DNA of 31,763 nucleotides from Patescibacteria group bacterium. GTDB taxonomy: Bacteria; Patescibacteriota; Patescibacteriia; Magasanikbacterales; GWA2-37-8. The stretch is taken from the NCBI GenBank assembly GCA_004321885.1, contig SCQK01000015.1, positions 1 through 31,763 of the forward strand, in the 5' to 3' direction. The notes beneath the pieces were generated by a model. That model saw nothing but the letters and a program-made list of their open reading frames with translations, was not told the origin of the DNA and searched no databases. The translations under genes were made by a program, and so were the position numbers. The first letter of the stretch is position 1. Every line of letters begins with the position of its first letter. Shown here piece after piece: positions 1 to 23,616 of the stretch.

Positions 1-1
1 T

Positions 2-8745: not shown

Positions 8746-9498
8746 CTATTGTTTTAGTATCTTCTTTAGCTCCTCCAAATTCCTCTTCCACTCCTTCCCG
8801 TCAAACCATTCCAGTCCATTAAACTGTAATTTATAGACATCGGCCGGGCGCTGGGCCGAGCCGATATACACGTATTTTTTTCCCTCCACCTTCGCGTGCA
8901 AAATCGCTTTTTGCATCATGCCCAGGCCCAGGTCTTTTTGTTTGGATTCAAGGTCGTAAAAAGGATAGCTGTAATGCAAGATATTTTTTGTTTCAAAACA
9001 AATGCAGTAGCCCAATACCCCCTCCCCCGTCCTCCCCCTAAGAGGGAGAGGACTACCAGCGGTATTTCCTTCCCCTTTTAGGGGAGGGGCAGGCCACCAC
9101 ACCAAAGATTTTGGTGTGGTGGCAGGGGGTGGGGTATAAATCAATAACAAATTAAAGTTGCTTTTTGCCGGGTCAGTCAGCATCTCTTTTATTTTTTGTG
9201 CGGAGAAAATTTTCGGTCCAAATTTTTTTTCGTAAAAATCCTTGCCCATCTTGTGCACGCGCCAGTCATAATCAGAGTAGGGGAGAGGGGCCGCGTCCAG
9301 TTCAAAATTTTTCGTATGGCTCAAAATGCGCCGGTTCTCGCTGTTTAGAATAAATTTGCCCAAATCAATGCGCACACTGCGCGTTTGATTCATATCGCCT
9401 TTGCCCGTGCGCGTAAAAACAAAACCCTCACTGTAAAGTTTTTCTACATTTTCATCCGCGAAATCAGAAATTGTTTTCTTGTTCCAAGATAGATACAT
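8746..9498 (-). CDS. ATE/Bpt-family (arginyl-/leucyl-tRNA-protein transferase-like, ATE_C domain) aminoacyl transferase. It carries a large in-frame palindromic-element insert.
   Basis: An 'GFVFTRTGKG...MNQTRSVRIDLGKF' segment resembles the ATE 'GWRRSG...QT..IR...F' region. The C-terminus 'YSYPFYDLESKQKDLGLGMMQKAILHAKVEGKKYVYIGSAQ' matches the ATE_C pattern Y-x-FYD-[PL]...SLG...I..AK..G..Y.Y[IL]G. Nucleotides 9010-9135 encode a Pro/Gly-rich 'TPPPATTPKSLVWWPAPPLKGEGNTAGSPLPLRGRTGEG' stretch. Confidence 0.55.
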   Translation of the reverse strand: MYLSWNKKTISDFADENVEKLYSEGFVFTRTGKGDMNQTRSVRIDLGKFILNSENRRILSHTKNFELDAAPLPYSDYDWRVHKMGKDFYEKKFGPKIFSAQKIKEMLTDPAKSNFNLLLIYTPPPATTPKSLVWWPAPPLKGEGNTAGSPLPLRGRTGEGVLGYCICFETKNILHYSYPFYDLESKQKDLGLGMMQKAILHAKVEGKKYVYIGSAQRPADVYKLQFNGLEWFDGKEWKRNLEELKKILKQ

Positions 9499-10660: not shown

Positions 10661-10723
10661 TGTCATGCTGAACTTGTCACCACACCAAAATTTTTTGGTG
10701 GTGGTGACAAGTTCAGGATGACA
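10661..10723. repeat. About 63-nt near-perfect palindrome (extended A-type element) filling the spacer between the NlpC/P60-like stop and the mraY start.
   Basis: The sequence is tgtcatgctgaacttgtcaccacaccaaaa | ttttttggtggtggtgacaagttcaggatgaca. The arms are complementary except for 1-2 positions. The core 'caccacaccaaa-tttggtg(g)tggtg' is shared with 4 intragenic copies. Confidence 0.8.
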
Positions 10724-10724
10724 G

Positions 10725-11564
10725 TTAAAATTTTAGCCGTCTGATTTCCAAAGTTTTCGCTTGCTTGGCTTCCAAAAACGTTTCGTTGGCTTCGCCCGTT
10801 TTGCCCAACTCAACCCACTCCTGCCCCAGCAATCCGGCTTTTGGATTCACGAGCCGGATAAATCCTTCGCTCACCCCGTGCCCGTATTTACCCTCACAGC
10901 CCCAGGCGCGGGCGCAGCCGTATCTAATAAACCCGCCGTCCGTTTCGGTAATAATCAAAATATGGTTGCGGTCGCGCCGCTGACCGGTGCGCAACATCAC
11001 AATCACGTCTCCGGCGCGCGCGTTTTCCAGCTTCACTTTTTCCGTATTCTCGTCGCTCGCGTAGGTACTCACGGAAATATTTTCCATTGGCCGCAATTTG
11101 GCGACAAGCCAGCGCCAAAAACGCGCCGGCGAAACCACGCGCAATCGCTTCAGCAAATTCACGTTTTTCGTTTCCAAAAAATGTTGCGCCAGCACGCGCG
11201 TGACAAAGCCCGAACAGTCCACGCCCAGCCCGTTATCAATCAAAAATTTGCGGATATCGCGCGCGACCTCTTCGCCGGCGCCGTGCTGCTCACCACCGCC
11301 GCCAGGCGGGGCCCCGCTCTGGCGGTGGTGCAAACAACAGCCCTCGTGGTCAAAGAGCTGTTTGTGGTATTGCAAAGAAATAATCTGCGCCTCTTCCGCG
11401 ATATCGCGCGGCGAACCCTTGCCAACAAGCACAGACAGCTGGCCGCGCCGGCCCCGGCGCGCGTTGTTAAAATACGGACAGCGCACATTGCCCGCGCCGC
11501 GAAAAGGCAGAGACAAATAATCATTTATGGTTCTTAGCGCCGACGGCGATAGGGTGTTTGGCAT
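10725..11564 (-). CDS. NlpC/P60-family (papain-like) putative cell-wall hydrolase or amidase with an in-frame GC-rich insert.
   Basis: A 'GVDCSGFV' catalytic-Cys motif is present, and a downstream 'GDVIVM....RNHILII' segment matches the NlpC/P60 'GDLVFF...HVGIY' pattern. Nucleotides 11291-11330 (a C-type palindrome) encode 'GAPPGGGGEQHGAG'. Confidence 0.5.
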   Translation of the reverse strand: MPNTLSPSALRTINDYLSLPFRGAGNVRCPYFNNARRGRRGQLSVLVGKGSPRDIAEEAQIISLQYHKQLFDHEGCCLHHRQSGAPPGGGGEQHGAGEEVARDIRKFLIDNGLGVDCSGFVTRVLAQHFLETKNVNLLKRLRVVSPARFWRWLVAKLRPMENISVSTYASDENTEKVKLENARAGDVIVMLRTGQRRDRNHILIITETDGGFIRYGCARAWGCEGKYGHGVSEGFIRLVNPKAGLLGQEWVELGKTGEANETFLEAKQAKTLEIRRLKF

Positions 11565-11580
11565 AATGTCATTCCCCCGA

Positions 11581-13338
11581 CTAAGTACGGGGGAATCCAG
11601 TACTTATTCGTTTAATCAATTTCGCCTTCAAAGTTTCCGGCAATAGATGAGTCTGCCCCAGTTTCTCCACTTCCACCCATTCCAATTGGTAGGAATTATT
11701 CGGATTATTGCGCGCCTGCTCGGGCCCGCCCAAAAATTCTTTGCCGGAAATATTTTTACCGAAAAAATAATGCTCTCGGCGCGGCGAGGCAATGGCGATA
11801 ATTTTTTTGCTTTCGTCAATTTCAAAATCCAAATTCGTCTCCTCTTTGGTTTCGCGCATGGCCGTGACGCGAAAATTTTCATTCGGCTCCACGGTGCCGC
11901 CGGGCATGGCAAAGTATTCATTGCCGTACTTGTTGCGCTTCATCAGCAAAATTTTGTCGTCTTTAATTAAAATCACGCCGGCGCGCGGCCGGTTCCAAAT
12001 CATATTTTTATGCGCTGAAATAATACCCACTAAAATAGACATCCCGACCTCGTTGAAAATGTTGTGTTTTTCCATCAACCCGCTCTCGCTTTGCACGCGA
12101 ATCAGGTCCGTGCCTAGTTTTACATTCTGGTACATTATGATATTAAAACTTTGCACGGCCTTGATTCTGGGTATTTCCAGTTCGTCTATGTTCAAAGTGA
12201 CCCTCTGCACGATTTGCGCGCCGTTTGTGATGGCCTGCAGGCGGTAGTCGTCCGGCGGCACGTCCAAAAGCGCGGCTACGTGCGCCTGAAAAGTGGTGGC
12301 GGCCGGCCGCGGCTTCATCAGTCCGCCCAGCCGTTTTTTGGGCGCGGCCTTGGCCATGGCCAACTCCTGCAACTGGGATTCAAAACTGGCCGAGGCCGGC
12401 TGGCGCGCGTTTACTTCCACCAGATACACTTGTCCGCCGGCTTCGTCTATCACCGCGTCTATGCCATAAAGCCCCTTCCATCCCTGGCTGGCCAGCCGTT
12501 CGCCTACTTCAATGGCTATTTTTTTGTACTGGGCCGCCTGTTCTTCGGTCAAAATTTTGCGCGGCATAGACCAGTCGTTGCCGATAGTGGCAAAGGGCAT
12601 GTCGGTAAAAGGCTTCAGGCCAGTGATTTGATAGCTGATGTTGCCGACAAACACCCTGTTTCCCCAGACCACGTTGTTGTTGGTAAAAAGCGGCCCCTTG
12701 ATGTACTCGGTTACGCGCACGTCGCGCCGCGGAAATTTTTCCCGTATCTCCTGCAGTTGTTTTTTGGATTCCACTAAAATTGTGCCCAGGCCCGTGTGCG
12801 AGCGGTTGAACTGCACGATAAACGGCTTGCCTTTCCACACCAGGTTGGCGCACAAGTCTATGCGGTGGGAAGGCAAGTGCGATGCCAATGGCCCCAGCCA
12901 ACGCACCTGGGAAATTTTTTCCTCCACTTCGTTGCAAAATTTGGCGCTCGGGTTGAGCAGGGCCCAGCCGTGGTCCGCGCAGAGCTCTTCTATATATATA
13001 TTGTTCTTAAACACCAAAACAAAGTCGCCTTTTTTGAGCAGAGACAAAGTTTTTTTGCGCGTCAGCAGTTCGCGCGTATCCAGCGGCCGCGGGTTGTCTA
13101 TCAAGATGATATTTTTGAAGCGCTTGGCCAGCTTGGACGAGTAGGAATTTTTGTTGGTGATGATATATATGCCGGGCTGGTGAAAATCCAGACCCTCGGC
13201 GCGCTCCACATCGCGGCAAACATAAAACAAACGCCGGCCAACGAGCTTGTTCGCGACTTCTTTGATAATATTTGATAACGGCATAGATTTAGTATATACT
13301 ACCTCAAAATTACCTGTGGCGCAATATCTGTTAGTCAT
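11581..13338 (-). CDS. Fusion protein with an N-terminal ATP-grasp ligase domain and a C-terminal NUDIX hydrolase domain.
   Basis: The ATP-grasp signature 'GLYGIDAVIDEAGGQVYLVEVNARQPASAS' (E-x-N) is present. The Nudix box 'PGGTVEPNENFRVTAMRETKEETNL' (GX5EX7REUXEEXGU) is in the last about 150 aa. A single uninterrupted 585-aa ORF encodes both domains. Confidence 0.7.
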   Translation of the reverse strand: MTNRYCATGNFEVVYTKSMPLSNIIKEVANKLVGRRLFYVCRDVERAEGLDFHQPGIYIITNKNSYSSKLAKRFKNIILIDNPRPLDTRELLTRKKTLSLLKKGDFVLVFKNNIYIEELCADHGWALLNPSAKFCNEVEEKISQVRWLGPLASHLPSHRIDLCANLVWKGKPFIVQFNRSHTGLGTILVESKKQLQEIREKFPRRDVRVTEYIKGPLFTNNNVVWGNRVFVGNISYQITGLKPFTDMPFATIGNDWSMPRKILTEEQAAQYKKIAIEVGERLASQGWKGLYGIDAVIDEAGGQVYLVEVNARQPASASFESQLQELAMAKAAPKKRLGGLMKPRPAATTFQAHVAALLDVPPDDYRLQAITNGAQIVQRVTLNIDELEIPRIKAVQSFNIIMYQNVKLGTDLIRVQSESGLMEKHNIFNEVGMSILVGIISAHKNMIWNRPRAGVILIKDDKILLMKRNKYGNEYFAMPGGTVEPNENFRVTAMRETKEETNLDFEIDESKKIIAIASPRREHYFFGKNISGKEFLGGPEQARNNPNNSYQLEWVEVEKLGQTHLLPETLKAKLIKRISTGFPRT

Positions 13339-13423
13339 TGCGAGCCCCGACGTTACGCCGGAGAGGAATCCCTTTTGGCATTAATAAAATCACAGTAAAT
13401 CGCTAATTTTACTAAATTTTATT

Positions 13424-14023
13424 ATGAAAAACGAAATAAAAGAAATAGAAAAAGACTTAGAATTTGTAAAAAATATTTATATAAAACTTCTAACGATATT
13501 GCCCAGTTTTAATATTACTGATAGCAAAATTTTGCCTTATGGCTTAAAAGCGCACACTAGATCGGTAAGTTGGTTAGTTGAGCAAGTTATTACACAGCAA
13601 ACTAAATTCAATGCAAAGAAACTTGATTTAGATGAAGTTAATTTTGACTTCCCAGATACCTCACTACATGATTGCGAAATTATTTATAAAGGGAGAAGTT
13701 ATTTTATAAATGTTAAAATTCACAATATTGGAAGCAAAGAAAATAAAAATGATATTTCTGCGGTAGAAAAACTTTATTTTCAATACAGTGTTAATAAAAA
13801 TTATACCTTAATATATGCTTGCTTTGGCATTAAATTTGAAAATATAAAAATAAATTTTGTTAAAGATTATTTAGAAGTTTTCTCGCCACAGTTTCTACCA
13901 ATTTATGTGAATCCTCGAAATGACAAAATTCAAGCCACCTATAGACATGATAAAGTATACAGAACGCGAGATGAATTTCTAAAAATGTTAAAAGAAAAAT
14001 CAAAAAGTATTATTTTAAAATAG
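13424..14023 (+). CDS. Putative type II restriction endonuclease, the R subunit of an AT-rich R-M islet.
   Basis: The 199-aa ORF has extremely low GC (about 20%). It lies 2 nt upstream of, and is co-oriented with, a beta-class DNA methyltransferase. No recognisable family motif was found, which is typical for REases. The assignment is by context. Confidence 0.45.
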   Translation: MKNEIKEIEKDLEFVKNIYIKLLTILPSFNITDSKILPYGLKAHTRSVSWLVEQVITQQTKFNAKKLDLDEVNFDFPDTSLHDCEIIYKGRSYFINVKIHNIGSKENKNDISAVEKLYFQYSVNKNYTLIYACFGIKFENIKINFVKDYLEVFSPQFLPIYVNPRNDKIQATYRHDKVYRTRDEFLKMLKEKSKSIILK

Positions 14024-14025
14024 CT

Positions 14026-14847
14026 ATGAATAAAATTTTTAACGAAGATATTTTATTAGGAATAGATAAAATAGAAGACAATTCTATTGATTTAATTTTA
14101 ACTGATCCTCCTTATTGTTTAGGCAAAGATTATGGCAATGATTCTGATCAAAAATCATCTGAGGATTATCTGAACTGGACATATCAATGGATTGATGCGG
14201 TTTTGCCTAAATTAAAAAATAGTGGAAGTTTTTATATTTTTTTAAGCTGGCAATATTCACCAGAAATTTTTTGTTATTTAAAAAAGAAATTACGAATGGT
14301 CAATGAAATTATTTGGGATAGACGAGTGCCAAGCATGGGCGGTTCTACTAGAAAATTTTCATCTGTCCACGACAATATAGGTTTTTTTGTAAAAAATAAT
14401 AATTATTATTTTGATTTAGATAGCATTAGAATTCCCTACGATGAAGAAACTAAAAAAGCAAGAACTCGATCAATTTTTGTTGGAAAAAAATGGTTAGAAA
14501 TGGGCTACAATCCAAAAGATTTATGGAGTACACCAAGAATACACACACAAGACCCTGAAAGAGAAAATCACCCAACCCAAAAACCTTTAGAAATAATTGA
14601 ACGAATGGTAAAAGCAAGTTGTCCTAAAAACGGAATTGTTTTTGATCCATTCATGGGAACCGGAACAACTGCTATCGCTTGCCTATCAAGCAATAGGCAA
14701 TATGTAGGATTTGAAATAAATAAAGATTATCACAAACTAATAACAAATCGAATCAAGAAACATAATAGTTGCCCGACTTTATTTCAACAACAGAAGCAAA
14801 AACAAGGTAATTTGACTCAAGGCATTCACCTATGCACGATAAATTGA
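14026..14847 (+). CDS. DNA methyltransferase, beta-class amino-MTase (N4-cytosine or N6-adenine), type II R-M system M subunit.
   Basis: An N-terminal 'DLILTDPPYCLG' (motif IV, DPPY) precedes a C-terminal 'HPTQKPLEIIERMV...VFDPFMGTGTTAIA' (motif I/SAM binding), giving the circularly permuted beta-class order. The composition is AT-rich. Confidence 0.85.
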   Translation: MNKIFNEDILLGIDKIEDNSIDLILTDPPYCLGKDYGNDSDQKSSEDYLNWTYQWIDAVLPKLKNSGSFYIFLSWQYSPEIFCYLKKKLRMVNEIIWDRRVPSMGGSTRKFSSVHDNIGFFVKNNNYYFDLDSIRIPYDEETKKARTRSIFVGKKWLEMGYNPKDLWSTPRIHTQDPERENHPTQKPLEIIERMVKASCPKNGIVFDPFMGTGTTAIACLSSNRQYVGFEINKDYHKLITNRIKKHNSCPTLFQQQKQKQGNLTQGIHLCTIN

Positions 14848-15758
14848 AACAATTCGGCCGCGTGAAAATCAACGAGCCGCTGGCCAAACATAATACATTT
14901 AGAATCGGCGGCCGGGCCAAGTTTCTTGTCATTGTGGATGACACGAACAAGCTCGTCGGCCTGCTTAATTTTTTGTCCGGGGCCGGAGAAAAATATTTTA
15001 TCGTGGGAGGCGGGTCCAATCTGCTGTTTTCCGACGATGAATTTGACGGGGTTATAATAAAAGTGCAAACATCCAAAATAGCGATAAAGGAAACCATGAT
15101 AGAAGCCGAGGCCGGGGTTTTGCTGTCCTTAGCCGTGAACATGGCCGCGCAAAACAGATTGGCTGGTCTGGAGTGGGGAGTGGGCATACCGGGCACTGTG
15201 GGCGGAGCCGTGCGCGGCAATGCCGGCGCCATGGGCGAGGATATGTCGTGCGTGCTTGACAGCGCGGATGTCTGGAGCGACGGTGAAATTTTGACCTTGA
15301 AAAAAAAAGAGTGCGGCTTTGGCTATCGCGACAGCGCGTTCAAAGCCGGCGGCGTGGTTTTACGCGCGCGTTTGGCTTTGCGCCGCGGCGACAAACAAGA
15401 AATCGCGGCCAAAATGGCGAAAAACGCGGCCCAGCGCGCCAGCCGCATCTCGCGCTTTGCCTCGGCCGGCAGTTTTTTCAAGAACATCAAGACCGAATTG
15501 TGGAAGCACGAAAAAACCGAAATGGATGAAATTTTTCATAAGCGCGGCAAGGTGCCGGCCGGCTGGCTGATAGAACAGGCCGGCTGTGCCAGGCTGGTTA
15601 GGGGCGGGGCGCGCGTTTCCGACGAGCACGCCAACATTATCGTGAATACCGGCGAGGCGACCGCCAAAGATGTTTTGGATTTAGTTGCTGAAATAAAAGA
15701 GAGCGTGTATAATAAATTTGGGGTGGAGTTGGAGGAAGAGGTGGAGATAGTGAGATAA
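14832..15758 (+). CDS. murB: UDP-N-acetylenolpyruvoylglucosamine reductase MurB.
   Basis: Motifs 'NTFRIGGRAKF', 'IVGGGSNLL' and the C-terminal 'SDEHANIIVNTGEATAKDVLDL' are characteristic MurB motifs. The start overlaps the methyltransferase stop by 16 nt. Confidence 0.85.
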   Translation: MHDKLKQFGRVKINEPLAKHNTFRIGGRAKFLVIVDDTNKLVGLLNFLSGAGEKYFIVGGGSNLLFSDDEFDGVIIKVQTSKIAIKETMIEAEAGVLLSLAVNMAAQNRLAGLEWGVGIPGTVGGAVRGNAGAMGEDMSCVLDSADVWSDGEILTLKKKECGFGYRDSAFKAGGVVLRARLALRRGDKQEIAAKMAKNAAQRASRISRFASAGSFFKNIKTELWKHEKTEMDEIFHKRGKVPAGWLIEQAGCARLVRGGARVSDEHANIIVNTGEATAKDVLDLVAEIKESVYNKFGVELEEEVEIVR

Positions 15759-15767
15759 AAAATCATT

Positions 15768-15860
15768 GTGTTTCTGAATGTGTTCTCGCTTTCCTCGGCC
15801 GCGAGGCCTCGGGCGTGGCGCTGTGGCGCCACAAGCCGCTGCGAACACATTCAGAAACAC
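15768..15860. promoter_or_regulatory. Large stem-loop between murB and hpf: an 18-bp perfect inverted repeat enclosing a 57-nt GC-rich self-complementary core. It is a candidate terminator, RNA structure or MITE-like element.
   Basis: The arm gtgtttctgaatgtgttc lies at 15768-15785 and gaacacattcagaaacac at 15843-15860. The core contains the sub-palindromes ggccgcgaggcc and ggcgctgtggcgcc. A T-run (caatttttatg) follows immediately before the hpf ATG. Confidence 0.6.
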
Positions 15861-15871
15861 AAACAATTTTT

Positions 15872-16231
15872 ATGCAAATACAAATAACCGGAAAGGGGAT
15901 AGAGCTGACAGACGCCATAAAGGATTACGTGGAAAAAAAGATGCTGGCTTTGGAAAAATTTTACGGCCGGATAATCCGCGCCGACGTGAGCGTGGGGGTG
16001 GAAAACCACCATCATCAAAAAGGAAAAATTTTCGTGGCCGAGTGCAAGTTGGAAGTGCCGGGCAAAGACTTGTTCGCCGGCAAAAATGAAAAAACTTTGT
16101 ATAAGGCAGTGGATAAAATCCGCGATTATCTGGAGGGCGAGCTGAAAAAACACAAGGTCAGATTGCAGGAAAAAAACCCCAAAGACAAGCGGCTCGTGCG
16201 CGCCAGCAAAGAATATCTTCCAGAAGAATGA
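15872..16231 (+). CDS. hpf: Ribosome hibernation promoting factor (short HPF/YfiA family).
   Basis: The translation 'MQIQITGKGIELTDAIKDYVEKKMLALEKFYGRIIRADVSV...' is the typical HPF N-terminus. The start is placed at the ATG at 15872. The longer track ORF from 15815 would read through the upstream hairpin. Confidence 0.8.
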   Translation: MQIQITGKGIELTDAIKDYVEKKMLALEKFYGRIIRADVSVGVENHHHQKGKIFVAECKLEVPGKDLFAGKNEKTLYKAVDKIRDYLEGELKKHKVRLQEKNPKDKRLVRASKEYLPEE

Positions 16232-18573
16232 AAGAGCAGGCAATAAAATTGATTAGGCGTTTTTGGCCGGCTGGCTATGGCTTGGTCGGCTCTTTTATTA
16301 TTTCCGCCGGCTGGAACTGGTATCACACCGCCCATCGTCCCCACTGGCGCATTATTCTCATCACGCTCGGCGTTTGGGTGGTTGTTTACGCAGGTTTTCG
16401 CGGATTCAAATGGCTTTATGCGTACTTTACGCGGCGCTTCCGCAGGCACGAGTTTTGGCAAAAGAATTTTTACGTTGTTTTAGACCAGCTTTATTTTATT
16501 TTCTCGCTTATTTTTTTGGTTTTTTTCTCGCGCGACGAAATCGTCTCGGCCCTCTACGCGCCCGTGATTTTTTTAATCTTTTATTGGCGCCTTGACCGGT
16601 ACCTCAAAAAGCACCCCGATGGCGGAATGTGGCGCCGCGTCGCGCGCGCGTTTTTTTTGTTCGGCTTTTTTATTTTTCTATTGATGGATGTTTTGCAATA
16701 TTTTGCTTTTCGTTTGTATATACTGGACCCAAACGCCAAAATTTTTAACATTGTTTTTTTCCGCGCTTGGGCCATGGCCATATTTTGGCTGGCTACATTT
16801 GCCGTCTGCGCCATCTGGTATCGCTTCACGCGCAAATGGCATCGCTACGCGCCACTCGGTTTTTGGGCGCTTTGCTTTGTCGTCTATGCCGCGCTGTGGG
16901 CGCTAAATGTAGGCGTGCTCTACTACTCGGGCTTGTACTTAAATCCGGCGCTTTTGGAACACGCCGAGGGCGGCGCCGGCGCCGGTTATCTTTCCACCGG
17001 CGTCAGCTATTTACTTTTCGCGTTATTGGCAGTAATGCTGGGTCTTTTCACTGTGCTATTTAAAAAAATCATGAAAGCGCACGGAAATTCGGCTACGCGC
17101 CACTGGAATTATTACCATTTCGCCCTCATTGCTTTGGCGCTGTTTACTTTTTTGGCCGTGGCCAGCTTCAAAACCACTCCCGAATATCTTATCATCCGTT
17201 CTTTTTATAAATACTTCCGCGGCGAAACCGAAAAAATAGAATTGAACCAGGCGGTCAAGACAAAATTAGAGCGATTTGGTCTGAAATACAACACGGACCA
17301 GTTCTACGTCGCGCACAAGGATACGGTTTATCGCTCAAATCCTCCACTCCTCGCCCCAAAATTCTCTACCAAAAAACCCAACCTCGTCATCGTTTTCCTG
17401 GAGTCCTTTTCCAGTCGCCTCACCGGCGTTTATAATCCCAAATACAAAGAGCTTACCCCGGGCCTCAACAAAATGGCCGCGGACAAAAATACCACTGTTT
17501 TCAAAAACTACTACAATGCCAGCACTCCGTCCATCACTGGCATTATTTCTTTGCTTTGCTCGTACCTCACGCCATTCGGCCACAATGAAATTCAAAACGA
17601 AAACCGCTTGCAAAGAACTGGCCTGATGTGCCTGCCGCGCGCCCTGAAAAAAAACGGCTACAAGGATTTTTTGTATATGACCGCGGTGAGCGAGGAATTC
17701 GCCAACAAGGGCTCCATTGCCAAAAGCATGGGCATAGAAAAAATGCTGGGCCAGGAAGAGCTGAAAAAATACATCAAAGCTCCGCCCCTGGCCTGGGGCT
17801 ACAGCGACCACCAGATGTTTCCGTTGTTTTTTGATTTGATGCCAAAACAGCGCGAACCGTTTTTGATGATGCTGGCCACAGTGGACACGCACCCGCCGTT
17901 TACCACGGCCAAGGATATTTTGAAATATAAAAGCGGGGGCAGCAACATGCTCAACACTTTTCACACCACCGACGACGGCTTCTCCAAATTTTGGGACCAG
18001 TTCAAGGCCAGCCCGTATTACGAGAATACAATTTTGATTGCCGTGGCCGACCACGCGGTTTTTCCGGTGGCCTACGACAAAAAGGGTTTTCCCGACGAGT
18101 ATGGCAAGCGCACTTTTTACGACGAAAATTTGTTCCTGCTCTACGCGCCTGAAAATGTTCTGCCCAAAGAGGTCAAGACGCTTTCGTCGGGGATTGATTT
18201 CACGCCAACGATTTTGCAAATGCTTGGGATAAACAAGGTGCCAAACGCGTTTGAAGGACATTCTATTTTTGACGACCGCGCCAAATTTCCAAACATCCTC
18301 GGCATGCACGAGTTCGGGCTGTATATAAACCAGGCGATTTCTCAAAATCCTACCCCTATTAGGGGGAGGGCGGGCCACCACACCAAAGAATTTGGTGTGG
18401 TGGCAGGGGAGGGGGTTGAACGTCGCACCGACTACGCGGTCCCATCGCATCTGGAATGCGCCGACGCCGAGGTCGGCGCTTCATCCAGCACCCCGCTCAC
18501 CCTTTGCGAATTTTTGCATTTCTACAAATGGAAACGCCAGATGATGGAAGAGGGCCGGTTTTGGGAGAAGTAA
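16228..18573 (+). CDS. LtaS/MdoB-like sulfatase-domain (alkaline-phosphatase superfamily) membrane protein. The N-terminal multi-TM is followed by an extracytoplasmic phosphotransferase domain, with an in-frame GC-rich insert near the C-terminus.
   Basis: About 300 aa of hydrophobic helices precede 'PNLVIVFLESFSS...NASTPSITGIISLLCSY...ATVDTHPPF', which is sulfatase/LtaS-like. Nucleotides 18353-18480 (B and A palindromes plus the gcgccgacgccgaggtcggcgc hairpin) encode 'PTPIRGRAGHHTKEFGVVAGEGVERRTDYAVPSHLECADAEVGASS'. Confidence 0.6.
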   Translation: MKEQAIKLIRRFWPAGYGLVGSFIISAGWNWYHTAHRPHWRIILITLGVWVVVYAGFRGFKWLYAYFTRRFRRHEFWQKNFYVVLDQLYFIFSLIFLVFFSRDEIVSALYAPVIFLIFYWRLDRYLKKHPDGGMWRRVARAFFLFGFFIFLLMDVLQYFAFRLYILDPNAKIFNIVFFRAWAMAIFWLATFAVCAIWYRFTRKWHRYAPLGFWALCFVVYAALWALNVGVLYYSGLYLNPALLEHAEGGAGAGYLSTGVSYLLFALLAVMLGLFTVLFKKIMKAHGNSATRHWNYYHFALIALALFTFLAVASFKTTPEYLIIRSFYKYFRGETEKIELNQAVKTKLERFGLKYNTDQFYVAHKDTVYRSNPPLLAPKFSTKKPNLVIVFLESFSSRLTGVYNPKYKELTPGLNKMAADKNTTVFKNYYNASTPSITGIISLLCSYLTPFGHNEIQNENRLQRTGLMCLPRALKKNGYKDFLYMTAVSEEFANKGSIAKSMGIEKMLGQEELKKYIKAPPLAWGYSDHQMFPLFFDLMPKQREPFLMMLATVDTHPPFTTAKDILKYKSGGSNMLNTFHTTDDGFSKFWDQFKASPYYENTILIAVADHAVFPVAYDKKGFPDEYGKRTFYDENLFLLYAPENVLPKEVKTLSSGIDFTPTILQMLGINKVPNAFEGHSIFDDRAKFPNILGMHEFGLYINQAISQNPTPIRGRAGHHTKEFGVVAGEGVERRTDYAVPSHLECADAEVGASSSTPLTLCEFLHFYKWKRQMMEEGRFWEK

Positions 18574-18579
18574 ATTTTT

Positions 18580-20211
18580 ATGAATCAAGAGCGGGCCCTG
18601 CAAATTTTAAAAACCGGCGCCAATGTTTTTCTGACCGGCGAACCCGGGTCGGGTAAAACGCACACGGTAAACGCTTATGCGCGTTATCTGCGCCAGAGGG
18701 GGATCGCGCCGGCGATTACCGCGTCCACCGGCATAGCCGCCACGCATATCGGCGGTTTTACGATACACTCGTGGAGCGGCATAGGCGTAGCGCCTCGGCT
18801 GGACAGATATTTGCTTGATAAAATTTCCACAAACGAGAGGGTGGTAAAGCGCGCGGGCGCGGCCAAAGTGCTGGTGATAGATGAAGTTTCAATGCTCGGC
18901 CCGGAAACTTTGTCCATGGTTGACGCGGTTTTGCGGGAAATCAAAAGATGCCGCGAGCCGTTTGGCGGCTTGCAAATAATTTTAGTGGGTGATTTTTTTC
19001 AATTGCCGCCGGTGGAAAAAAACCTTCCGGAAATTCAGAATAGTTTACTCCAAGATAGGCCGGCGCGATTCGCCTTTGATTCGCCGGGCTGGAAAAATCT
19101 GCGGCCAATGGTTTGCTATCTCACGGAACAGCATCGGCAGGACGATCCGCAATTTTTGGGTTTGCTTTCCGCCATCCGTGGAAATCGCTTTAGCGACAAT
19201 CATCTATCTTTGATAAACAGCCGTAAAACCGAATCCGCCCAAGCGCCCGATCGCGTTCCCAAACTTTTTTCCCATAACATTGACGTTGGCCGCGTAAACG
19301 ATGAAACATTGTCCAAGCTTCCCGGGCCGGAAAAAACTTTTTTTATGTCATCGCGCGGAAACCCGCGATTGGTTGAATTTTTAATAAAGGGTTGCCTATC
19401 GCCTGAAAAACTTTGTTTAAAAAAGGGCGCGGCCGTGATGTTCACGAAAAATAATCAGGCCGAAGGGTATGTCAACGGCACGCTGGGAGTGGTACAAAAT
19501 TTCAGCGAGTCAGGCGCTCCGATTATAAAAACGCGCGGCGGGCGGTTTATTGATGTGACAGCGGCCGAGTGGGCGCTGGAAGACAACGGACGCGTGCTGG
19601 CGACGATTGAACAATTGCCCCTACGTTTGGCCTGGGCCATTACCGTGCACAAAAGTCAGGGTATGAGTTTGGATGAAGCGACCATGGATTTGAGCCGTGT
19701 TTTTGAATATGGACAGGGATACGTGGCTCTGTCGCGCGTGCGGCGGCTCTCGGGCGTGCATTTGCTGGGCTGGAACGAACGCGCTTTCGCCGTGCACCCG
19801 GAGGTTTTGGAAAAAGATCAGGAGTTTAGAACTTCGTCGTTGGCATCGGAAGAGGCGTTCGCGAAATTGCCGGACGAGGAACTAAAAAAAATGAGCGATA
19901 ATTTTGTCGTGGCCTGCGGAGGCCAGGTCGGTGGCGTCGTGTCCCCCTCCTTTATAAGGAGGGGGCAGGGGGAGGTATTGCAGGGGTCATCGCGGTCGGG
20001 CGGCTTTGATAAAATCCGTCAAGATCACCCAAACGCCTATCGCCCGTGGGAGCCGGAGCAAGACGAAGAATTAAAAAAACTTTTCGCGCGAAAAACATCA
20101 ATCAAGGATATATCAAAAAAACTTGGCCGCAAAAAAGGCGGCATCACTTCGCGCCTGGTGCGTCTGGGCGTTGTTGAAAGCCGCGAGCAAGCCAGGGCAC
20201 AGCGCGGTTAA
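18580..20211 (+). CDS. SF1B PIF1/RecD-like ATP-dependent DNA helicase with a C-terminal HTH-like tail.
   Basis: Walker A 'TGEPGSGKTH', Walker B 'VLVIDEVSMLG' and 'ILVGDFFQLPPV' are present. The C-terminal portion is UvrD_C-like, and the last about 60 aa are 'KKLFARKTSIKDISKKLGRKKGGITSRLVRLGV'. Nucleotides 19943-19965 (B-type palindrome) are in frame, encoding 'VVSPSFIRRGQGE'. Confidence 0.75.
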   Translation: MNQERALQILKTGANVFLTGEPGSGKTHTVNAYARYLRQRGIAPAITASTGIAATHIGGFTIHSWSGIGVAPRLDRYLLDKISTNERVVKRAGAAKVLVIDEVSMLGPETLSMVDAVLREIKRCREPFGGLQIILVGDFFQLPPVEKNLPEIQNSLLQDRPARFAFDSPGWKNLRPMVCYLTEQHRQDDPQFLGLLSAIRGNRFSDNHLSLINSRKTESAQAPDRVPKLFSHNIDVGRVNDETLSKLPGPEKTFFMSSRGNPRLVEFLIKGCLSPEKLCLKKGAAVMFTKNNQAEGYVNGTLGVVQNFSESGAPIIKTRGGRFIDVTAAEWALEDNGRVLATIEQLPLRLAWAITVHKSQGMSLDEATMDLSRVFEYGQGYVALSRVRRLSGVHLLGWNERAFAVHPEVLEKDQEFRTSSLASEEAFAKLPDEELKKMSDNFVVACGGQVGGVVSPSFIRRGQGEVLQGSSRSGGFDKIRQDHPNAYRPWEPEQDEELKKLFARKTSIKDISKKLGRKKGGITSRLVRLGVVESREQARAQRG

Positions 20212-20337
20212 GTCAACTAAAACCGTCCCATTCGAGTCGCCTCAAAAGCGGCTTTTCTTGTAATTTCCGGCGGGGAGGAGTAAAATAAGGTTAAAAACCA
20301 AAATGAATGTCCAATTATAGACATAATAGGATCCAGC

Positions 20338-21171
20338 TTGTCGGGTATGTCAAAAATTTTGGAAAATATTAAGCAGCGACCATATTTTTCGAAGAACAAT
20401 TTTGTCCTGTACAGGGACAACTGTTTAAATATTCTGGGAAAATTACCAGAGAATTCGGTTGACATGATTTTTGCAGATCCTCCTTATTTGCTTTCGAACG
20501 GCGGAATGACGTGCAATGGGGGGAAAATGGTAAGCGTTGATAAAGGGCAGTGGGATGTGAGTAACGGTTTAAAAAAGGACTGGGAATTTCATTTGAGCTG
20601 GATTAAAGCGTGTCATCGAGTATTAAAGCCATGCGGAACAATTTGGATAAGTGGGACCTATCACTCCATTTATCAATGCGGATTCGCTTTGCAGGTCAAC
20701 AAATTTCATATTTTGAATGATATTGCCTGGTTCAAACCGAATGCGTCTCCAAATTTGAGTTGTCGATTTTTTACTGCTAGCCACGAAACGATTATTTGGG
20801 CTCGGAAAGATAAAAAAGGAAAACACAAATTTAATTATGAGCTAATGAAAAACAGAGACTGGACGGGTGATTTTATAAAAAAACCGAATCTTCAAATGCG
20901 AAGTGTTTGGGCTATTTATCCTCCCAAAAAAGAAGAAAAGATTTTTGGTAAGCACCCCACTCAAAAACCGATAGATTTATTGGTTAGGATTATCCTCGCA
21001 AGCACAGATAAGGGCGACATTGTTTTGGACCCATTTACCGGCTCTTCAACTTCAGGGCTGGCGGCATTTTTGAATGAAAGAAAATTCGTTGGTATTGATT
21101 TGGAAAAAAAATATCTAGATATATCCATTAAACGTTTCAGCAGTTTTAAAAAAGAAGCCCCTCATTTATGA
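20338..21171 (+). CDS. Orphan beta-class DNA amino-methyltransferase (N6-adenine or N4-cytosine).
   Basis: An 'DMIFADPPYLL' (DPPY) motif is N-terminal, and 'HPTQKPIDLLVRIILAST..GDIVLDPFTGSSTSG' is C-terminal. The islet is low-GC (about one-third). No intact REase ORF is adjacent. Confidence 0.85.
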   Translation: MSGMSKILENIKQRPYFSKNNFVLYRDNCLNILGKLPENSVDMIFADPPYLLSNGGMTCNGGKMVSVDKGQWDVSNGLKKDWEFHLSWIKACHRVLKPCGTIWISGTYHSIYQCGFALQVNKFHILNDIAWFKPNASPNLSCRFFTASHETIIWARKDKKGKHKFNYELMKNRDWTGDFIKKPNLQMRSVWAIYPPKKEEKIFGKHPTQKPIDLLVRIILASTDKGDIVLDPFTGSSTSGLAAFLNERKFVGIDLEKKYLDISIKRFSSFKKEAPHL

Positions 21172-21282
21172 AAATTGTTACTCGTGCAACGGCGATCGAA
21201 AATTTAAAAAAAGCTTTAGGAAAAAATTTGAGAGCCCTATCAAAAAAATATCAAGTGACCACTTTGGAATTGAGGTAAAATA
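21169..21282 (+). pseudogene. A 37-codon ORF translationally coupled (ATGA overlap) to the orphan methyltransferase. It is a possible 5' remnant of a lost restriction endonuclease gene.
   Basis: The methyltransferase stop TGA overlaps the ATG (ttATGAaaattg). The ORF reads MKIVTRATAIENLKKALGKNLRALSKKYQVTTLELR* and then runs into the transketolase 5' region. Confidence 0.25.
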
Positions 21283-21303
21283 TGGACACTAATAATTTTT
21301 AAT

Positions 21304-23616
21304 ATGGCGCAAAAAGTTTTCACGACGACAAAAACCCCACCCCCTGCCACCGCCGCGAGGCGGGGCCCCGCCGTGGCGGTGGCCCCTCCCCTAAAAGGGG
21401 AGGGGGCCAACTGGATTCCCGCCTCCGCTGGAATGACAACTTTAGAAAAATTAGCCCGGATGTTGCGGGCCCTGATATTCGCCTCGGTGGAAGCCGGCCA
21501 ATCAGGCCATCCGGGCGGCAGCAGTTCCAAGGTGGAGCAATTTTTAACAATGCTCCTCGGCGGTTTTGTGGCTTTTGACCCGGCCAATCCTAAAAATCCC
21601 GGGCGCGACCGCGTGGTGTGGAGCTCTGGCCATTGTACGCCTTTGCTCTACGGCGGTCTGGCCATGCTCTATGAAGCCATGCGGCGCGAGGGCAGGCAAT
21701 TTTCCAAAGCCGCTGTGGGCGCCGTGTTTCCCGAAGACCTGGCCAGCTTTCGCCAGACCCACGGCTTGCCCGGGCATGCTGAAAGCGTGTATCCGCTGGT
21801 GGATGTTTCCACCGCCTCATCAGGCCACGGGCTGTCAGCCGCGGTTGGGATAGCCATGGCACACAAATCCAGTGGTCTTGATACAAAAATTTGGGTGCTC
21901 ATGGGTGATGCCGAAACTGAAGAAGGCATCAGCTACGAAGCGCGCAATGTGGCCGCGGCTTCGGGCCTAAACAATGTTATTGTTTCTTTGGATTACAACG
22001 GCTTTGGCATAGACGGCCCCATCACCGAGGCCATGGTTTCCAGCCCGGGCGCGCAGTGGTCGGCCCTGGGCTGGAATGTGCTCATAGCCGACGGCCATGA
22101 TTTTTCCGCCCTGGCCGCGGCCTACGCTAAAGCACAGCGCGCGGACAAGCCCACGGTGGTGGTTTGCCGCACCATCAAAGGCAAGCATTATGGGGCGCGG
22201 GAAAACAGCCATTCTTCGCACGGCACGCCCTTGCCTCATGACGAGTATGCCGCGGCAGTCAAAAAATTAGGGTTTGATATAAAAGGAGAAAAGGGCAAGG
22301 CCATCGCGGACATAGAAAAAATTATAGACCAGCTGGGCGAACGCGAGGCTGATTTTATTTCCAAAGCGCTCAAAAAATGCGCGGCCAAAATCAAACCCGA
22401 AGAAGAGCTGGTAAAAAAAATGAAAACCGCCCTGCCGGGCAGGCCGTTTAAGGGCGTTCTGAATGTGCAGCGGCCGAAAAAATTGTCGCCCGAACTGGTG
22501 TTTGCTCCGGGCGCCAATGTCAGCGGGCGCAAGGCGGCCCAGGCCTGGTGCAAATGGCTGATGACCCAGAGCGCGTTTGTGTTTGCCGGCGCCGGCGACG
22601 TCAGCAAGTCCGTACTCACTGCCGCGGCGGAAAACGTGTACGGCGTTATCGGACCGGCCAATCCGCTGGGCCGCGGCATTCGCTTTGGCATTGCCGAGGC
22701 CAACATGGGCATGGTTGCCAGCGCGCTGTCGCAGGAAATTTTGCCCGGCGGCATTCGGCCCTCTTGTATTTTTGGCACCTACAGCGTGTTCGCCCCCATG
22801 ATGGCCAACAGCATTCGCATGTCTTTAATTGACAGAAAAATAAATAAAGACCGGCGCGGATTTTTTGTGGCTTTGGCGTCTCACGACGGACCAGAAACAG
22901 GCGAAGACGGCCCCACACATCAGGGTCTTTACTGGATGTCGCTTTTTGACGCCTATCCGGGCATAAAAGTGTACAAGCCCGCCGACGCCAACGAAACAAT
23001 AGAAATGCTTTTTCACGCCCTCCAAATCGGCGAGCCGATAGTTTTGTCTTTGCCGCGCGCGGACTGGCCCGTGATAGACCGCGCTTGCGCGCCGGCGGCC
23101 AGCGAAGCGAATAACGGCGCGTATGTTTTTAAGGATTACACCCCCTCCTCGCCACCACACCAAAGCATTTGGTGTGGTGGCGAGCCTCCCCCTTCTAAAG
23201 GGGGAGGGAAAACGGCTGCTCCACAAATAAGGGGAGGGAAACGTATCGTGCTCGCCGTCTGCGGAGGCCAGCTCTTGCAAAACACGCTGGCCATACTGCC
23301 AGACTTGGAAAAGAAAAAATTGAACGTCAAAATTATCGTGGTAACGGCGCCCGAGCTGTTTGAGGATTTGCGCGCTCGCGACCCGAAAAAAGCGCGCGCT
23401 ATTTTAAGCGACGAAGAACGCGCCGACATAATCACCCTGCACAACGGCTGGCCCGGATTTTTGCGCCGATTTTTACTGCCGGAAAATTACGCCGCGCGCG
23501 AAATCGGAGTCGCGGATTTTTTGGTTTCCTGCAAACCGGCCGACGCCTACGACATCGCCGAACTTTCGCCCAAAGACCTAATAAAAAAAATCCTAAAAAA
23601 TGTCAAAGATAACTAA
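21304..23616 (+). CDS. tkt: Transketolase (TPP-dependent). The likely true start is the ATG at 21433, because the first 43 codons of the long ORF lie in C- and B-type palindromic elements. It also carries an internal in-frame A/B element.
   Basis: Motifs 'SGHPGGSSS', 'GDAETEEGISYEA' and 'GEDGPTHQG' are transketolase hallmark motifs. Nucleotides 21346-21405 are palindromic repeats. Nucleotides 23150-23240 (A plus B elements) encode 'PSSPPHQSIWCGGEPPPSKGGGKTAAPQIRGGK'. Confidence 0.85.
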   Translation: MAQKVFTTTKTPPPATAARRGPAVAVAPPLKGEGANWIPASAGMTTLEKLARMLRALIFASVEAGQSGHPGGSSSKVEQFLTMLLGGFVAFDPANPKNPGRDRVVWSSGHCTPLLYGGLAMLYEAMRREGRQFSKAAVGAVFPEDLASFRQTHGLPGHAESVYPLVDVSTASSGHGLSAAVGIAMAHKSSGLDTKIWVLMGDAETEEGISYEARNVAAASGLNNVIVSLDYNGFGIDGPITEAMVSSPGAQWSALGWNVLIADGHDFSALAAAYAKAQRADKPTVVVCRTIKGKHYGARENSHSSHGTPLPHDEYAAAVKKLGFDIKGEKGKAIADIEKIIDQLGEREADFISKALKKCAAKIKPEEELVKKMKTALPGRPFKGVLNVQRPKKLSPELVFAPGANVSGRKAAQAWCKWLMTQSAFVFAGAGDVSKSVLTAAAENVYGVIGPANPLGRGIRFGIAEANMGMVASALSQEILPGGIRPSCIFGTYSVFAPMMANSIRMSLIDRKINKDRRGFFVALASHDGPETGEDGPTHQGLYWMSLFDAYPGIKVYKPADANETIEMLFHALQIGEPIVLSLPRADWPVIDRACAPAASEANNGAYVFKDYTPSSPPHQSIWCGGEPPPSKGGGKTAAPQIRGGKRIVLAVCGGQLLQNTLAILPDLEKKKLNVKIIVVTAPELFEDLRARDPKKARAILSDEERADIITLHNGWPGFLRRFLLPENYAAREIGVADFLVSCKPADAYDIAELSPKDLIKKILKNVKDN

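What the first reader, a model, noticed from the sequence alone, without database searches (positions are those of the whole stretch)
11291..21383. Third palindromic element type (C-type) shared by the NlpC/P60-like gene and the transketolase 5' region
The sequence caccaccgccgccaggcggggccccgctctggcggtggtg at 11291-11330 lies in frame in the NlpC/P60-like gene, where it encodes GAPPGGGGEQHGAG. The sequence gccaccgccgcgaggcggggccccgccgtggcggtggc at 21346-21383 lies at the tkt 5' end. Both are imperfect palindromes around the same cggggccccg centre. Two different genes on opposite strands therefore share about 38 nt of GC-rich palindrome that is alien to their local composition, which supports mobility or templated spread.
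Basis: seen in the sequence. Interest (0 to 1): 0.5.

Follow-up and report, generated by a model that had tools for sequence, protein, structure and literature searches.

The report
Tiny GC-rich hairpin insertion element
Two copies of a 36-base GC-rich hairpin sit in this ultra-small (CPR/Patescibacteria) bacterium's DNA, one adding 12 amino acids to an enzyme and one upstream of transketolase, and the same hairpin is scattered through many other CPR genomes, so it behaves like a very small mobile insertion element.

Summary
Window 11293-11328 and 21347-21382 share 33 of 36 nt in the same orientation. The best pair in 30 shuffles had at least 7 mismatches.

Copy 2 is not in the transketolase coding sequence. 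It lies 51-86 nt upstream of the canonical start (M44). It fills the central slot of a three-part repeat whose other window copies carry a different hairpin there.

Pattern scans found the hairpin in about 40 further contexts, almost all in CPR genomes. It is nearly always 36 nt and 74-89% GC, against 31-61% GC flanks. In-frame copies lie in SecA, PilM, a glycosyltransferase and other genes. In seven loci it interrupts a partial tRNA copy. Removing it restores the adjacent tRNA's sequence with no target duplication.

Related hairpins precede small GIY-YIG nuclease genes next to tRNA genes in 9 of 9 loci sampled without regard to the hairpin.

The mobility reading is supported. The mobilising enzyme is unknown. 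I found no published description.

The parts
11293..11328 (+). C-type hairpin copy 1. It is subtype C1, with a 4-nt/2-nt internal loop: CCACCGCC-GCCA-GGCGGGGCCCCGCT-CT-GGCGGTGG. It is a 36-nt insertion in the minus-strand gene, inside the His79 codon (CA^T), and adds residues 80-91, HRQSGAPPGGGG.
   Evidence: Sequence. Insert absent from 18 of 19 aligned orthologues. Covariance model R1 scores 55.6 bits. Hairpin fold.
10725..11564 (-). Host gene of copy 1. It encodes a 279-aa protein conserved in CPR. The C-terminal domain has an NlpC/P60 papain-like fold (DCSGF with Cys117, His201). The insert lies in the low-confidence N-terminal part, before the catalytic Cys.
21347..21382 (+). C-type hairpin copy 2, subtype C1: CCACCGCC-GCGA-GGCGGGGCCCCGCC-GT-GGCGGTGG. 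A flanking G and C extend the stem to GCCACC...GGTGGC (21346-21383).
   Evidence: Sequence. R1 scores 56.6 bits. Fold.
21334..21345 (+). Left module of the composite scaffold, ACCCCACCCCCT. With the following GCCACC it is identical over 18 nt to the left side of the A-type composite at 9067-9135 (reverse complement).
   Evidence: Alignment A3. Sequences.
21383..21406 (+). Right module of the composite scaffold: the B-type hairpin CCCCTCCCC-TAAAA-GGGGAGGGGG.
21433..23616 (+). Transketolase gene from its canonical start (M44 of the long ORF that begins at 21304). Copy 2 lies 51-86 nt upstream of this start.
   Evidence: Pfam Transketolase_N from residue 49. M44 aligns with residue 1 of 8r3o_A.

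Best explanation
Both copies belong to a dispersed family of 36-bp (rarely 35-38 bp) GC-rich, near-perfect palindromes. The family is spread across the Candidate Phyla Radiation (Patescibacteria) and behaves as a tiny non-autonomous insertion element.

Anatomy. The unit has an 8-9-bp outer stem (G)CCACCGCC/GGCGGTGG(C), internal loops that vary in sequence but sum to 6 nt (4+2 or 3+3), an inner stem GGCGG/CCGC(C/T), and an apex GGCC (rarely GTCC or GACC). It reads as a head-to-tail dimer of an 18-nt unit: CCACCGCC-N3-4-GGCGGGG | CCCCGCY-N2-3-GGCGGTGG.

Shown. The unit is added to pre-existing sequence with exact ends and no target-site duplication. No frame on either strand of the two window copies holds a stop codon. 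Because the length is 12 codons, copies landing in tolerant loops or linkers of genes keep the reading frame and survive. Copy 1 is such an event in an NlpC/P60-fold gene. Copy 2 sits in the leader of tkt, between two other repeat modules, in the slot that carries the A-type hairpin in the other window composites.

Inferred. Spread depends on an enzyme acting in trans on the hairpin or cruciform. The best lead is the family of small (about 80-aa) GIY-YIG nucleases. Their genes sit beside tRNA genes and are consistently preceded by a partial tRNA copy that carries this hairpin or its 16-17-nt half-unit. Under this model, solo hairpins such as the two in the window arise by break repair or gene conversion templated from such cassettes. 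I put GIY-YIG involvement at about 0.35. A REP/RAYT-like single-strand (HUH transposase) route is the main alternative.
For: - Pair identity is 33 of 36 nt, far beyond shuffles.
- Orthologue alignment shows a 12-aa insert unique to the window protein. P0092 has a different insertion in the same loop.
- The genome-contig scan gave 16 loci. 12 are labelled CPR. 3 come from two MAGs not labelled CPR, with 45-50% GC over the whole loci (40-46% in the 500-nt flanks). One is a 69% GC Arenimonas locus whose inner stem does not pair, so it is a chance hit.
- The metagenome scan gave 33 loci, mostly groundwater. Two of them (65% and 78% GC) look like chance hits.
- The flanking C...G outside the first search pattern is conserved in all CPR hits but one.
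- About 85% of copies are exactly 36 nt, although the patterns allowed 33-41 nt.
- Removing the hairpin restores the first 16-30 nt of the adjacent intact tRNA in 7 loci, each p<0.002. The joints are exact and there is no duplication.
- In-frame copies lie in real genes: SecA, PilM, a TraG/TrwB-like protein, an LCP protein, a GT2 glycosyltransferase and a CAP-domain protein.
- An orthologous copy is kept in three diverged genomes, L016, L040 and L044.
- Covariance model R1 finds diverged relatives, including one with a compensated outer pair (C-G to T-A) at L012:5012.
- The composite-scaffold alignment shows the central hairpin swapped. In L025 the hairpin sits inside a B-type hairpin, and in L036 inside a GGATTCCCG...CGGGAAT hairpin.
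- GIY-YIG link: the GIY-YIG ORF starts 17-20 nt after the hairpin in L009, L030 and L047 (Pfam).
Against: - No mobilising gene is in the window: no GIY-YIG (tblastn) and no tRNA. The rest of this genome was not available.
- Copy number per genome looks low. There are 2 copies in 31.7 kb here and usually 1 per 8-kb locus elsewhere.
- No closely related genome exists to show an empty site at either window position. The nearest orthologue is 58% identical (57% by BLASTP local alignment).
- The search patterns fixed the stem sequences, so the apparent invariance of the stems is partly imposed. Covariation cannot be assessed from those hits.
- Strong stem conservation across distant CPR classes, and frequent placement near gene 5' ends, could instead point to a selected cis-function.
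- The GIY-YIG association is correlative. It could mean only that partial tRNA copies are preferred or tolerated landing sites.
- No clear target consensus emerged.
Confidence: 0.75

Rival explanations
1. The hairpin is mainly a selected cis-acting signal: an RNA 5' stabiliser or processing hairpin, or a binding site for a conserved CPR protein. On this view it is kept where it is useful, and the tkt-leader copy regulates or stabilises the tkt transcript.
For: - Stem sequence is conserved across distant CPR classes while the internal loops drift.
- Many copies lie near gene starts: 51 nt upstream of tkt, 18 nt upstream of rpmE in L045, 17-20 nt upstream of GIY-YIG ORFs, and 24-60 nt upstream of tRNAs.
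- An orthologous copy is retained in three diverged genomes with very well conserved flanks.
Against: - Copies in the middle of coding sequences (the NlpC/P60-fold gene, SecA, GT2, a TraG-like tail) and in both orientations relative to the host gene cannot share one cis-function.
- There is no T-run, so the hairpin is not an intrinsic terminator.
- No Rfam family matches.
- A cis-function would explain retention of a copy, not how the copy arrived.
Confidence: 0.15
2. It is a REP/REPIN-like element mobilised as single-stranded DNA by a RAYT or IS200/IS605-type HUH (Y1) transposase encoded elsewhere in the genome.
For: - The size and imperfect-palindrome form are those of REPs.
- Insertion is exact with no target duplication.
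- The conserved asymmetric internal loop (NNGA / GT in subtype C1) resembles the mismatches that HUH transposases read. That comparison rests on established knowledge of IS608/RAYT, not on a test here.
Against: - There is no conserved GTAG or other fixed flanking tetranucleotide.
- There are no inverted doublets (REPINs).
- Several copies are intragenic.
- No Y1 transposase was seen. However, only about 8 kb per genome was available, so this is weak evidence.
Confidence: 0.2
3. The similarity is coincidental low-complexity GC-rich coding sequence (Gly/Pro/Ala codons), or an assembly or library artefact.
For: The sequence is GC-rich and encodes Gly/Pro/Ala-rich peptides. One contig (L019) ends inside a copy.
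Against: - The best pair in shuffles has at least 7 mismatches, against 3 observed.
- The same 36-mer occurs in non-coding contexts, inside tRNA fragments, and in all three reading frames.
- It was found in assemblies from many independent studies.
- Reading frames are preserved, and an orthologous copy has diverged flanks.
Confidence: 0.01

Closest known systems
Rickettsia palindromic elements (RPEs)
   Same: [quoted passage not shown] No transposase lies within the element.
   Different: RPEs are about 100-150 bp, are confined to Rickettsia and have unrelated sequence. The C-type unit is 36 bp and is shared across many CPR lineages.
REP / REPIN elements mobilised by RAYT (IS200/IS605-like Y1 transposases)
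   Same: About 20-40-nt imperfect palindromes, dispersed, with no target duplication, often arranged with other modules into composite (BIME-like) arrays, as at the tkt leader.
   Different: REPs are extragenic, carry a conserved 5' GTAG, usually number in the hundreds per genome, and form inverted doublets. None of these features was seen here.
Mobile GC clusters of yeast and fungal mitochondrial genomes
   Same: 30-60-bp GC-rich palindromes foreign to AT-richer surroundings. They occur in intergenic DNA and in frame inside genes, in genomes that also carry GIY-YIG or LAGLIDADG homing endonuclease genes.
   Different: They occur in organelles and have unrelated sequence. Several classes show short target duplications. 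There is no tRNA-fragment context.
Free-standing GIY-YIG homing endonuclease genes in tRNA regions (e.g. phage T4 SegB, PMC2330249)
   Same: A small GIY-YIG gene embedded among tRNA genes and spreading by break repair. This is a precedent for the GIY-YIG/tRNA cassettes that carry the hairpin.
   Different: SegB has no associated conserved hairpin and no interrupted partial tRNA copy. The CPR proteins are only about 80 aa, with no obvious DNA-binding domain.
MITEs (e.g. Neisseria Correia elements)
   Same: Small non-autonomous repeats with inverted ends. In one Vogelbacteria genome the hairpin is the core of a MITE-like unit of about 190 bp with roughly 30-nt inverted ends.
   Different: MITEs have terminal inverted repeats plus target-site duplications. 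The bare 36-mer shows exact joints without duplication.

Membership tests
REP/REPIN (RAYT-mobilised) | Short (about 20-40 nt) imperfect palindrome | tested here: met
   A 36-nt hairpin with internal loops.
REP/REPIN (RAYT-mobilised) | Conserved 5' GTAG (or other fixed) flanking tetranucleotide | tested here: not met
   Flank tabulation of 16 C1 and 23 C2 orientations shows only a weak T-rich left flank and no fixed motif.
REP/REPIN (RAYT-mobilised) | Extragenic location; inverted doublets (REPINs) | tested here: not met
   Several copies are intragenic and in frame. No inverted doublets of the unit occur in any locus.
REP/REPIN (RAYT-mobilised) | Cognate RAYT (Y1 transposase) gene in the genome, flanked by REPs | not testable with these tools
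   Only one 31.7-kb contig of this genome, and about 8 kb per related genome, were available.
Rickettsia palindromic elements | In-frame insertion into protein-coding genes, absent from orthologues | tested here: met
   A 12-aa insert is absent from 18 of 19 aligned orthologues. In-frame copies occur in SecA, PilM, GT2 and other genes.
Rickettsia palindromic elements | Length about 100-150 bp and sequence homology to RPE-1 to RPE-8 | tested here: not met
   The unit is 36 bp. Homology to RPE sequences was not tested; that the sequence is unrelated rests on recall.
MITE | Terminal inverted repeats plus target-site duplication | tested here: not met
   The whole unit is one palindrome. Healed flanks equal the adjacent tRNA sequence with no duplicated bases.
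Intrinsic (Rho-independent) terminator | GC-rich stem-loop followed by a T-run | tested here: not met
   No T-run follows either window copy. The terminator scan of 21100-21500 does not call the hairpin.
Known structured RNA family (Rfam) | Match at or above a family's gathering score | tested here: not met
   No matches in the window. In 18 related loci only tRNA, rRNA and a SAM riboswitch matched, none overlapping the hairpin.
NlpC/P60 (host gene of copy 1) | Papain-like alpha+beta fold with catalytic Cys (DCSG motif) and His | tested here: met
GIY-YIG/tRNA cassette (candidate parent system) | Small GIY-YIG ORF abutting a tRNA gene, preceded by a hairpin-bearing partial tRNA copy | tested here: not met
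   The window has no tRNA and no GIY-YIG homologue. The two window copies are solo hairpins. The cassette architecture was seen in 12 of 12 other loci.

The most novel reading that the evidence does not exclude
The 36-nt hairpin and its 16-18-nt half-unit CCCCGCC-N2-3-GGCGGGG are the cis-element of a previously undescribed, very small mobile system. Its autonomous form would be an approximately 80-aa GIY-YIG nuclease gene lodged in a duplicated tRNA gene. The partial tRNA copy always has a loop or arm interrupted or replaced by the hairpin. The system occurs across CPR and in at least one Bacteroidota genome. Solo hairpins, including 12-codon in-frame insertions in essential genes such as SecA, would be its non-autonomous by-products, made by nuclease-triggered, template-directed repair.
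Probability: 0.3. Interest if true: 0.8.

Novelty: new variant of a known kind. Interest (0 to 1): 0.62.

Why it matters
CPR bacteria have very small, streamlined genomes and are thought to carry few mobile elements. A conserved 36-bp hairpin that inserts into coding sequences, including essential genes, would be a source of protein-loop variation. It also causes annotation errors, such as spurious N-terminal extensions like the 43-residue one on tkt here. It may break assemblies too: one contig (L019) ends inside a copy.

If the link to small GIY-YIG genes beside tRNA genes holds, it suggests a testable function for an abundant class of about 80-aa 'GIY-YIG nuclease family' genes, as structure- or tRNA-gene-directed selfish nucleases. 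It would also give a bacterial parallel to the pairing of mobile GC clusters with homing endonucleases in fungal mitochondria.

Tried and rejected
- **Insertion into hairpin loops.** I tested whether the element inserts into loops of pre-existing DNA hairpins. After removing the element and folding 24+24 nt of flank, the junction lay in a hairpin loop with at least 4 spanning pairs in 12 of 40 contexts, against 28% at random positions of the same loci. There is no enrichment, although individual nested cases exist (L005, L025, L036).
- **Target consensus and target-site duplication.** I found none beyond a weak T-rich left flank.
- **Rfam.** Nothing matched in the window or at the hairpins in 18 related loci.
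- **Viral contigs.** There were no hits for the C-type or the A-type hairpin.
- **Host protein by sequence.** Pfam and a PDB sequence search gave nothing for the 279-aa protein. Only fold comparison identified it.
- **Promoter and terminator scan around tkt.** It was uninformative.
- **Literature.** Searches on palindromic elements, MITEs or REPs in CPR, and on GIY-YIG with tRNA, hairpin or pseudo-tRNA, found no description.
- **Covariation statistics.** I did not pursue them, because the stems were fixed by the search patterns. Only anecdotal compensated changes were read, in pattern-independent copies at L012:5012 and L055.
- **SecA insert boundaries.** I could not show that the peptide in L031 is an exact 12-aa insert. 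It lies in a region that varies among solved SecA structures.
Full report
**1. Observation**

The quoted sequences are present. The shared core is CCACCGCCGC[C/G]AGGCGGGGCCCCGC[TC/CG]TGGCGGTGG at 11293-11328 and 21347-21382. It matches at 33 of 36 nt, in the same orientation on the + strand. In 30 dinucleotide-preserving shuffles of the window, the best pair of 36-mers had at least 7 mismatches. Both copies fold as hairpins. Their GC content is 86-89%, against 48-53% in the flanks. The window contains no third copy, either by pattern with mismatches or by covariance model.

**2. Source and host genes**

The 279-aa product of 10725-11564(-) is identical to a protein from a 'Patescibacteria group bacterium' contig of 31,763 bp.

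The long ORF 21304-23616 is a transketolase. Pfam coverage begins at residue 49, and M44 aligns with residue 1 of a solved transketolase. The canonical start is therefore nt 21433, and the second hairpin lies 51-86 nt upstream of it. It is leader or intergenic DNA. An in-frame ATG at 21304 makes it look like coding sequence.

**3. Copy 1 is an insertion**

In an alignment of the window protein with 19 orthologues (52-58% identity, mostly about 265 aa), 18 have nothing where the window protein has 12 extra residues.

Read on the minus strand, the DNA is ...TGT TGT TTG CA|C CAC CGC CAG AGC GGG GCC CCG CCT GGC GGC GGT GG|T GAG CAG CAC... Removing the 36-nt unit CCACCGCC...GGCGGTGG restores CAT GAG CAG CAC GGC, which encodes H-E-Q-H-G. 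This matches the conserved H-x-E-H-x-G of the orthologues. The insertion therefore lies within a His codon, keeps the frame and adds HRQSGAPPGGGG.

The nineteenth orthologue, P0092, has a different insertion in the same loop. Its DNA (L050) shows two other small hairpin modules there, TGTCATCCCCGCGAAAGCGGGG and TGTCATCCTGACGAAAGTCGGGAT. This loop has therefore accepted hairpin modules at least twice independently.

**4. Copy 2 sits in a composite repeat**

I aligned 21326-21416 with the four other composite repeats of the window: 7383-7454, 9067-9135 and 18348-18416 (all reverse complement), and 23143-23209. All share one scaffold: ACCCC(A/C)(C/T)CCCCT, then a central hairpin, then CCCCTCCCC-TAAAA-GGGGAGGGG.

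The four others carry GCCACCACACCAAA-NNN-TTTGGTGTGGTGGC (the A-type hairpin) in the centre. The tkt-leader copy carries the C-type hairpin instead. The two central hairpins share only the ends GCCACC...GGTGGC. The C-type is thus a separate module that can occupy the same slot. It is not an isolated third kind of element.

**5. Further copies elsewhere**

A scan of one genome per species (185,579 species) with CACCGCC-N3-5-GNCGGGGCCCCGNY-N1-3-GGCGGTG returned 16 loci:
- Twelve are labelled CPR: Vogelbacteria (six contigs of one MAG), Saccharibacteria, Uhrbacteria and 'Patescibacteria'.
- Three come from two MAGs not labelled CPR, with 45-50% GC over the whole loci (40-46% in the 500-nt flanks).
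- One is a 69% GC Arenimonas hit whose inner stem does not pair, so it is a chance match.

A looser metagenome scan returned 33 loci, mostly from groundwater. Two high-GC loci look like chance hits. After removing duplicates there are about 40 distinct contexts.

Several features were not imposed by the patterns:
- The flanking C...G that extends the outer stem is present in all CPR hits but one.
- The apex is GGCC, or a single change from it.
- Length is exactly 36 nt in about 85% of copies, although 33-41 nt was allowed.
- The two internal loops vary in sequence but sum to 6 nt.

There are two subtypes: C1 (NNGA...GT, 4+2; both window copies) and C2 (3+3). Viral contigs gave nothing. Rfam gave nothing.

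A covariance model built from 35 copies finds diverged relatives that the patterns missed. One, at L012:5012, has the outermost pair changed from C-G to T-A.

**6. Evidence that the unit is added to pre-existing sequence**

(a) In seven loci from different genomes (L003, L009, L010, L013, L022, L030, L047) the hairpin interrupts a partial 5' copy of a tRNA, located 24-442 nt from the intact gene. Deleting exactly CCACCGCC...GGCGGTGG restores the tRNA sequence. For example, L009 gives 30 of 30 nt. Each case has p<0.002 against shuffles. The joints are exact and no bases are duplicated.

(b) In-frame copies lie inside real genes: SecA (L031), PilM (L017), a TraG/TrwB-like ATPase (L034), an LCP protein (L016, L040 and L044, an orthologous site in three diverged genomes), a GT2 glycosyltransferase (L012) and a CAP-domain protein (L032). 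All three reading frames and both orientations are used.

(c) The hairpin is nested inside other palindromes. It forms the centre of a MITE-like unit of about 190 nt in Vogelbacteria. It sits inside a B-type hairpin in L025 and inside a GGATTCCCG...CGGGAAT hairpin in L036.

**7. Mechanism**

No enzyme can be assigned from the window. It has no tRNA and no GIY-YIG homologue.

A lead came from the related loci. In L009, L030 and L047 a small GIY-YIG ORF (Pfam PF01541) starts 17-20 nt after the hairpin, and the intact tRNA follows the ORF. To avoid the bias of having found those loci through the hairpin, I searched for homologues of the protein.

All nine abut an intact tRNA gene (Ser five times, Tyr, Gly, Thr, Pro). 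All nine have, next to the cassette (upstream of the ORF in eight; ahead of the intact tRNA in L059), a partial copy of that tRNA (in L062 a diverged tRNA-like copy) carrying a GC-rich hairpin:
- The hairpin is in the D-loop in L051, L053, L055, L064 and L066.
- It is in the anticodon loop or replaces the anticodon arm in L057, L065, L059 and L062.
- It is in the T-loop in the second pseudo-tRNA copy of L066.

The hairpin is either a C-type relative or a 16-17-nt mini-hairpin, CCCCGCC-N2-3-GGCGGGG. Model R1 scores for the relatives run from 36.6 bits (L057) down to 17.4 bits (L053).

The 36-mer itself reads as two such units head to tail (18+18 nt). It can fold as twin hairpins at about -12 kcal/mol, against about -19 kcal/mol for the single long hairpin. 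One of the nine loci, L066, is from Bacteroidota.

I therefore propose, as inference, that the hairpin is the cis-element of these GIY-YIG/tRNA cassettes. Solo copies like those in the window would arise in trans, by break repair or gene conversion templated on a cassette. A REP/RAYT-like single-strand route is the main alternative. The exact, duplication-free joints fit either route.

A purely functional reading, such as a 5' stabiliser or a protein-binding site, could explain why leader copies are retained. It does not explain mid-gene copies.

**8. Comparison with known kinds**

In behaviour the element is closest to Rickettsia palindromic elements, because of the in-frame insertions, and to REPs and BIMEs, because of its size and its modular arrays. 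It fails the defining tests of each:
- It is far too short to be an RPE.
- It has no GTAG, no doublets and no extragenic restriction, so it does not fit REP/REPIN.
- It has no target duplication, so it does not fit a MITE.
- It has no T-run, so it is not an intrinsic terminator.

The nearest analogy to the whole picture is the combination of mobile GC clusters and homing endonuclease genes in fungal mitochondria. T4 SegB is a precedent for a GIY-YIG gene among tRNA genes (PMC2330249).

Eight full-text searches found no description of this hairpin, or of the GIY-YIG/partial-tRNA/hairpin arrangement.

**9. Verdict**

I file the element as a new variant of a known kind, the small palindromic insertion elements. 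They deserve follow-up.

Noticed in passing
L009:147-433, L030:2358-2652, L047:8242-8529, and L051, L053, L055, L057, L059, L062, L064, L065, L066 (about 780-1320 in each): Small GIY-YIG genes (78-107 aa) sit directly beside an intact tRNA gene. Next to each cassette (upstream of the ORF in most; ahead of the intact tRNA in L059) is a partial copy of that tRNA (in L062 a diverged tRNA-like copy). In that copy the D-loop, anticodon loop or arm, or T-loop is interrupted or replaced by a GC-rich hairpin: a C-type relative or the mini-hairpin CCCCGCC-N2-3-GGCGGGG. This held in 12 of 12 loci, 9 of them chosen without reference to the hairpin and one from Bacteroidota. I found no paper describing it.
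   Followed up: partly
window 7383-7454, 9015-9135, 18348-18416, 23143-23209: Composite A-type plus B-type palindromic repeats lie inside long ORFs in frame: a Mur ligase, an unannotated 250-aa ORF, a sulfatase-domain protein, and the C-terminal part of transketolase, where they encode PPHQSIWCGGEPPPSKGGG. In the Mur ligase, the Mur_ligase_C match spans 152 residues for a 127-position model.
   Followed up: partly
window 21413-21438: A further small hairpin, GGATTCC-CGCCTCCGCT-GGAATGACA, overlaps the canonical tkt start codon (ATG at 21433). A close relative (GGATTCCCG...CGGGAATGACA) flanks the C-type hairpin in L036. This motif resembles 'ATTCCC-N8-GGGAAT'-type repeats that I recall from other bacteria; that recollection was not tested.
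   Followed up: no
window 10661-10723: A 63-nt palindrome (TGTCATGCTGAACTTGTCACCACACCAAAA / TTTGGTGGTGGTGACAAGTTCAGGATGACA) fills the gap between the glycosyltransferase-4 gene and the NlpC/P60-fold gene. Its inner part resembles the A-type hairpin. Its outer part resembles the TGTCATCCTGA modules seen in L050.
   Followed up: no
L001, L002, L004, L006, L008 (Vogelbacteria PCYI01), e.g. L006:3000-3330: In one Vogelbacteria genome the C-type hairpin is the core of a MITE-like unit of about 190 nt with roughly 30-nt inverted ends (TAGGACnTACGCAAAA...GTCTTTGC) and a second internal hairpin. A short form lacking the second hairpin occurs in L005. At least six copies have identical hairpins.
   Followed up: partly
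L050:262-318: The P0092 orthologue of the NlpC/P60-fold protein carries two different small hairpin modules in the same protein loop that holds the C-type insert in the window. The loop is therefore a repeatedly used permissive site.
   Followed up: yes
window 1-1600: The stretch has 64-66% GC (55% in its last 100 nt), far above the rest of the window. It has diverged tandem repeats of about 120-150 nt (families D2, D3, D8) within ORF 74-1600, and the repeat units contain many Cys codons (TGC/TGT).
   Followed up: no
window 13400-14900: An AT-rich island (27-39% GC) holds two ORFs (13424-14023 and 14026-14847) between genes of about 50% GC. It may be foreign DNA.
   Followed up: no
L019:1-35: A metagenome contig ends inside a C-type hairpin copy, which suggests that the repeat breaks short-read assemblies.
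   Followed up: no
L003:7346-7382, L013:990-1026: The hairpin-interrupted partial tRNA copies are not limited to class II tRNAs. Fragments of tRNA-Gln and tRNA-Glu carry the hairpin in the D-loop, 60 and 25 nt upstream of the intact genes, with no GIY-YIG ORF between.
   Followed up: partly
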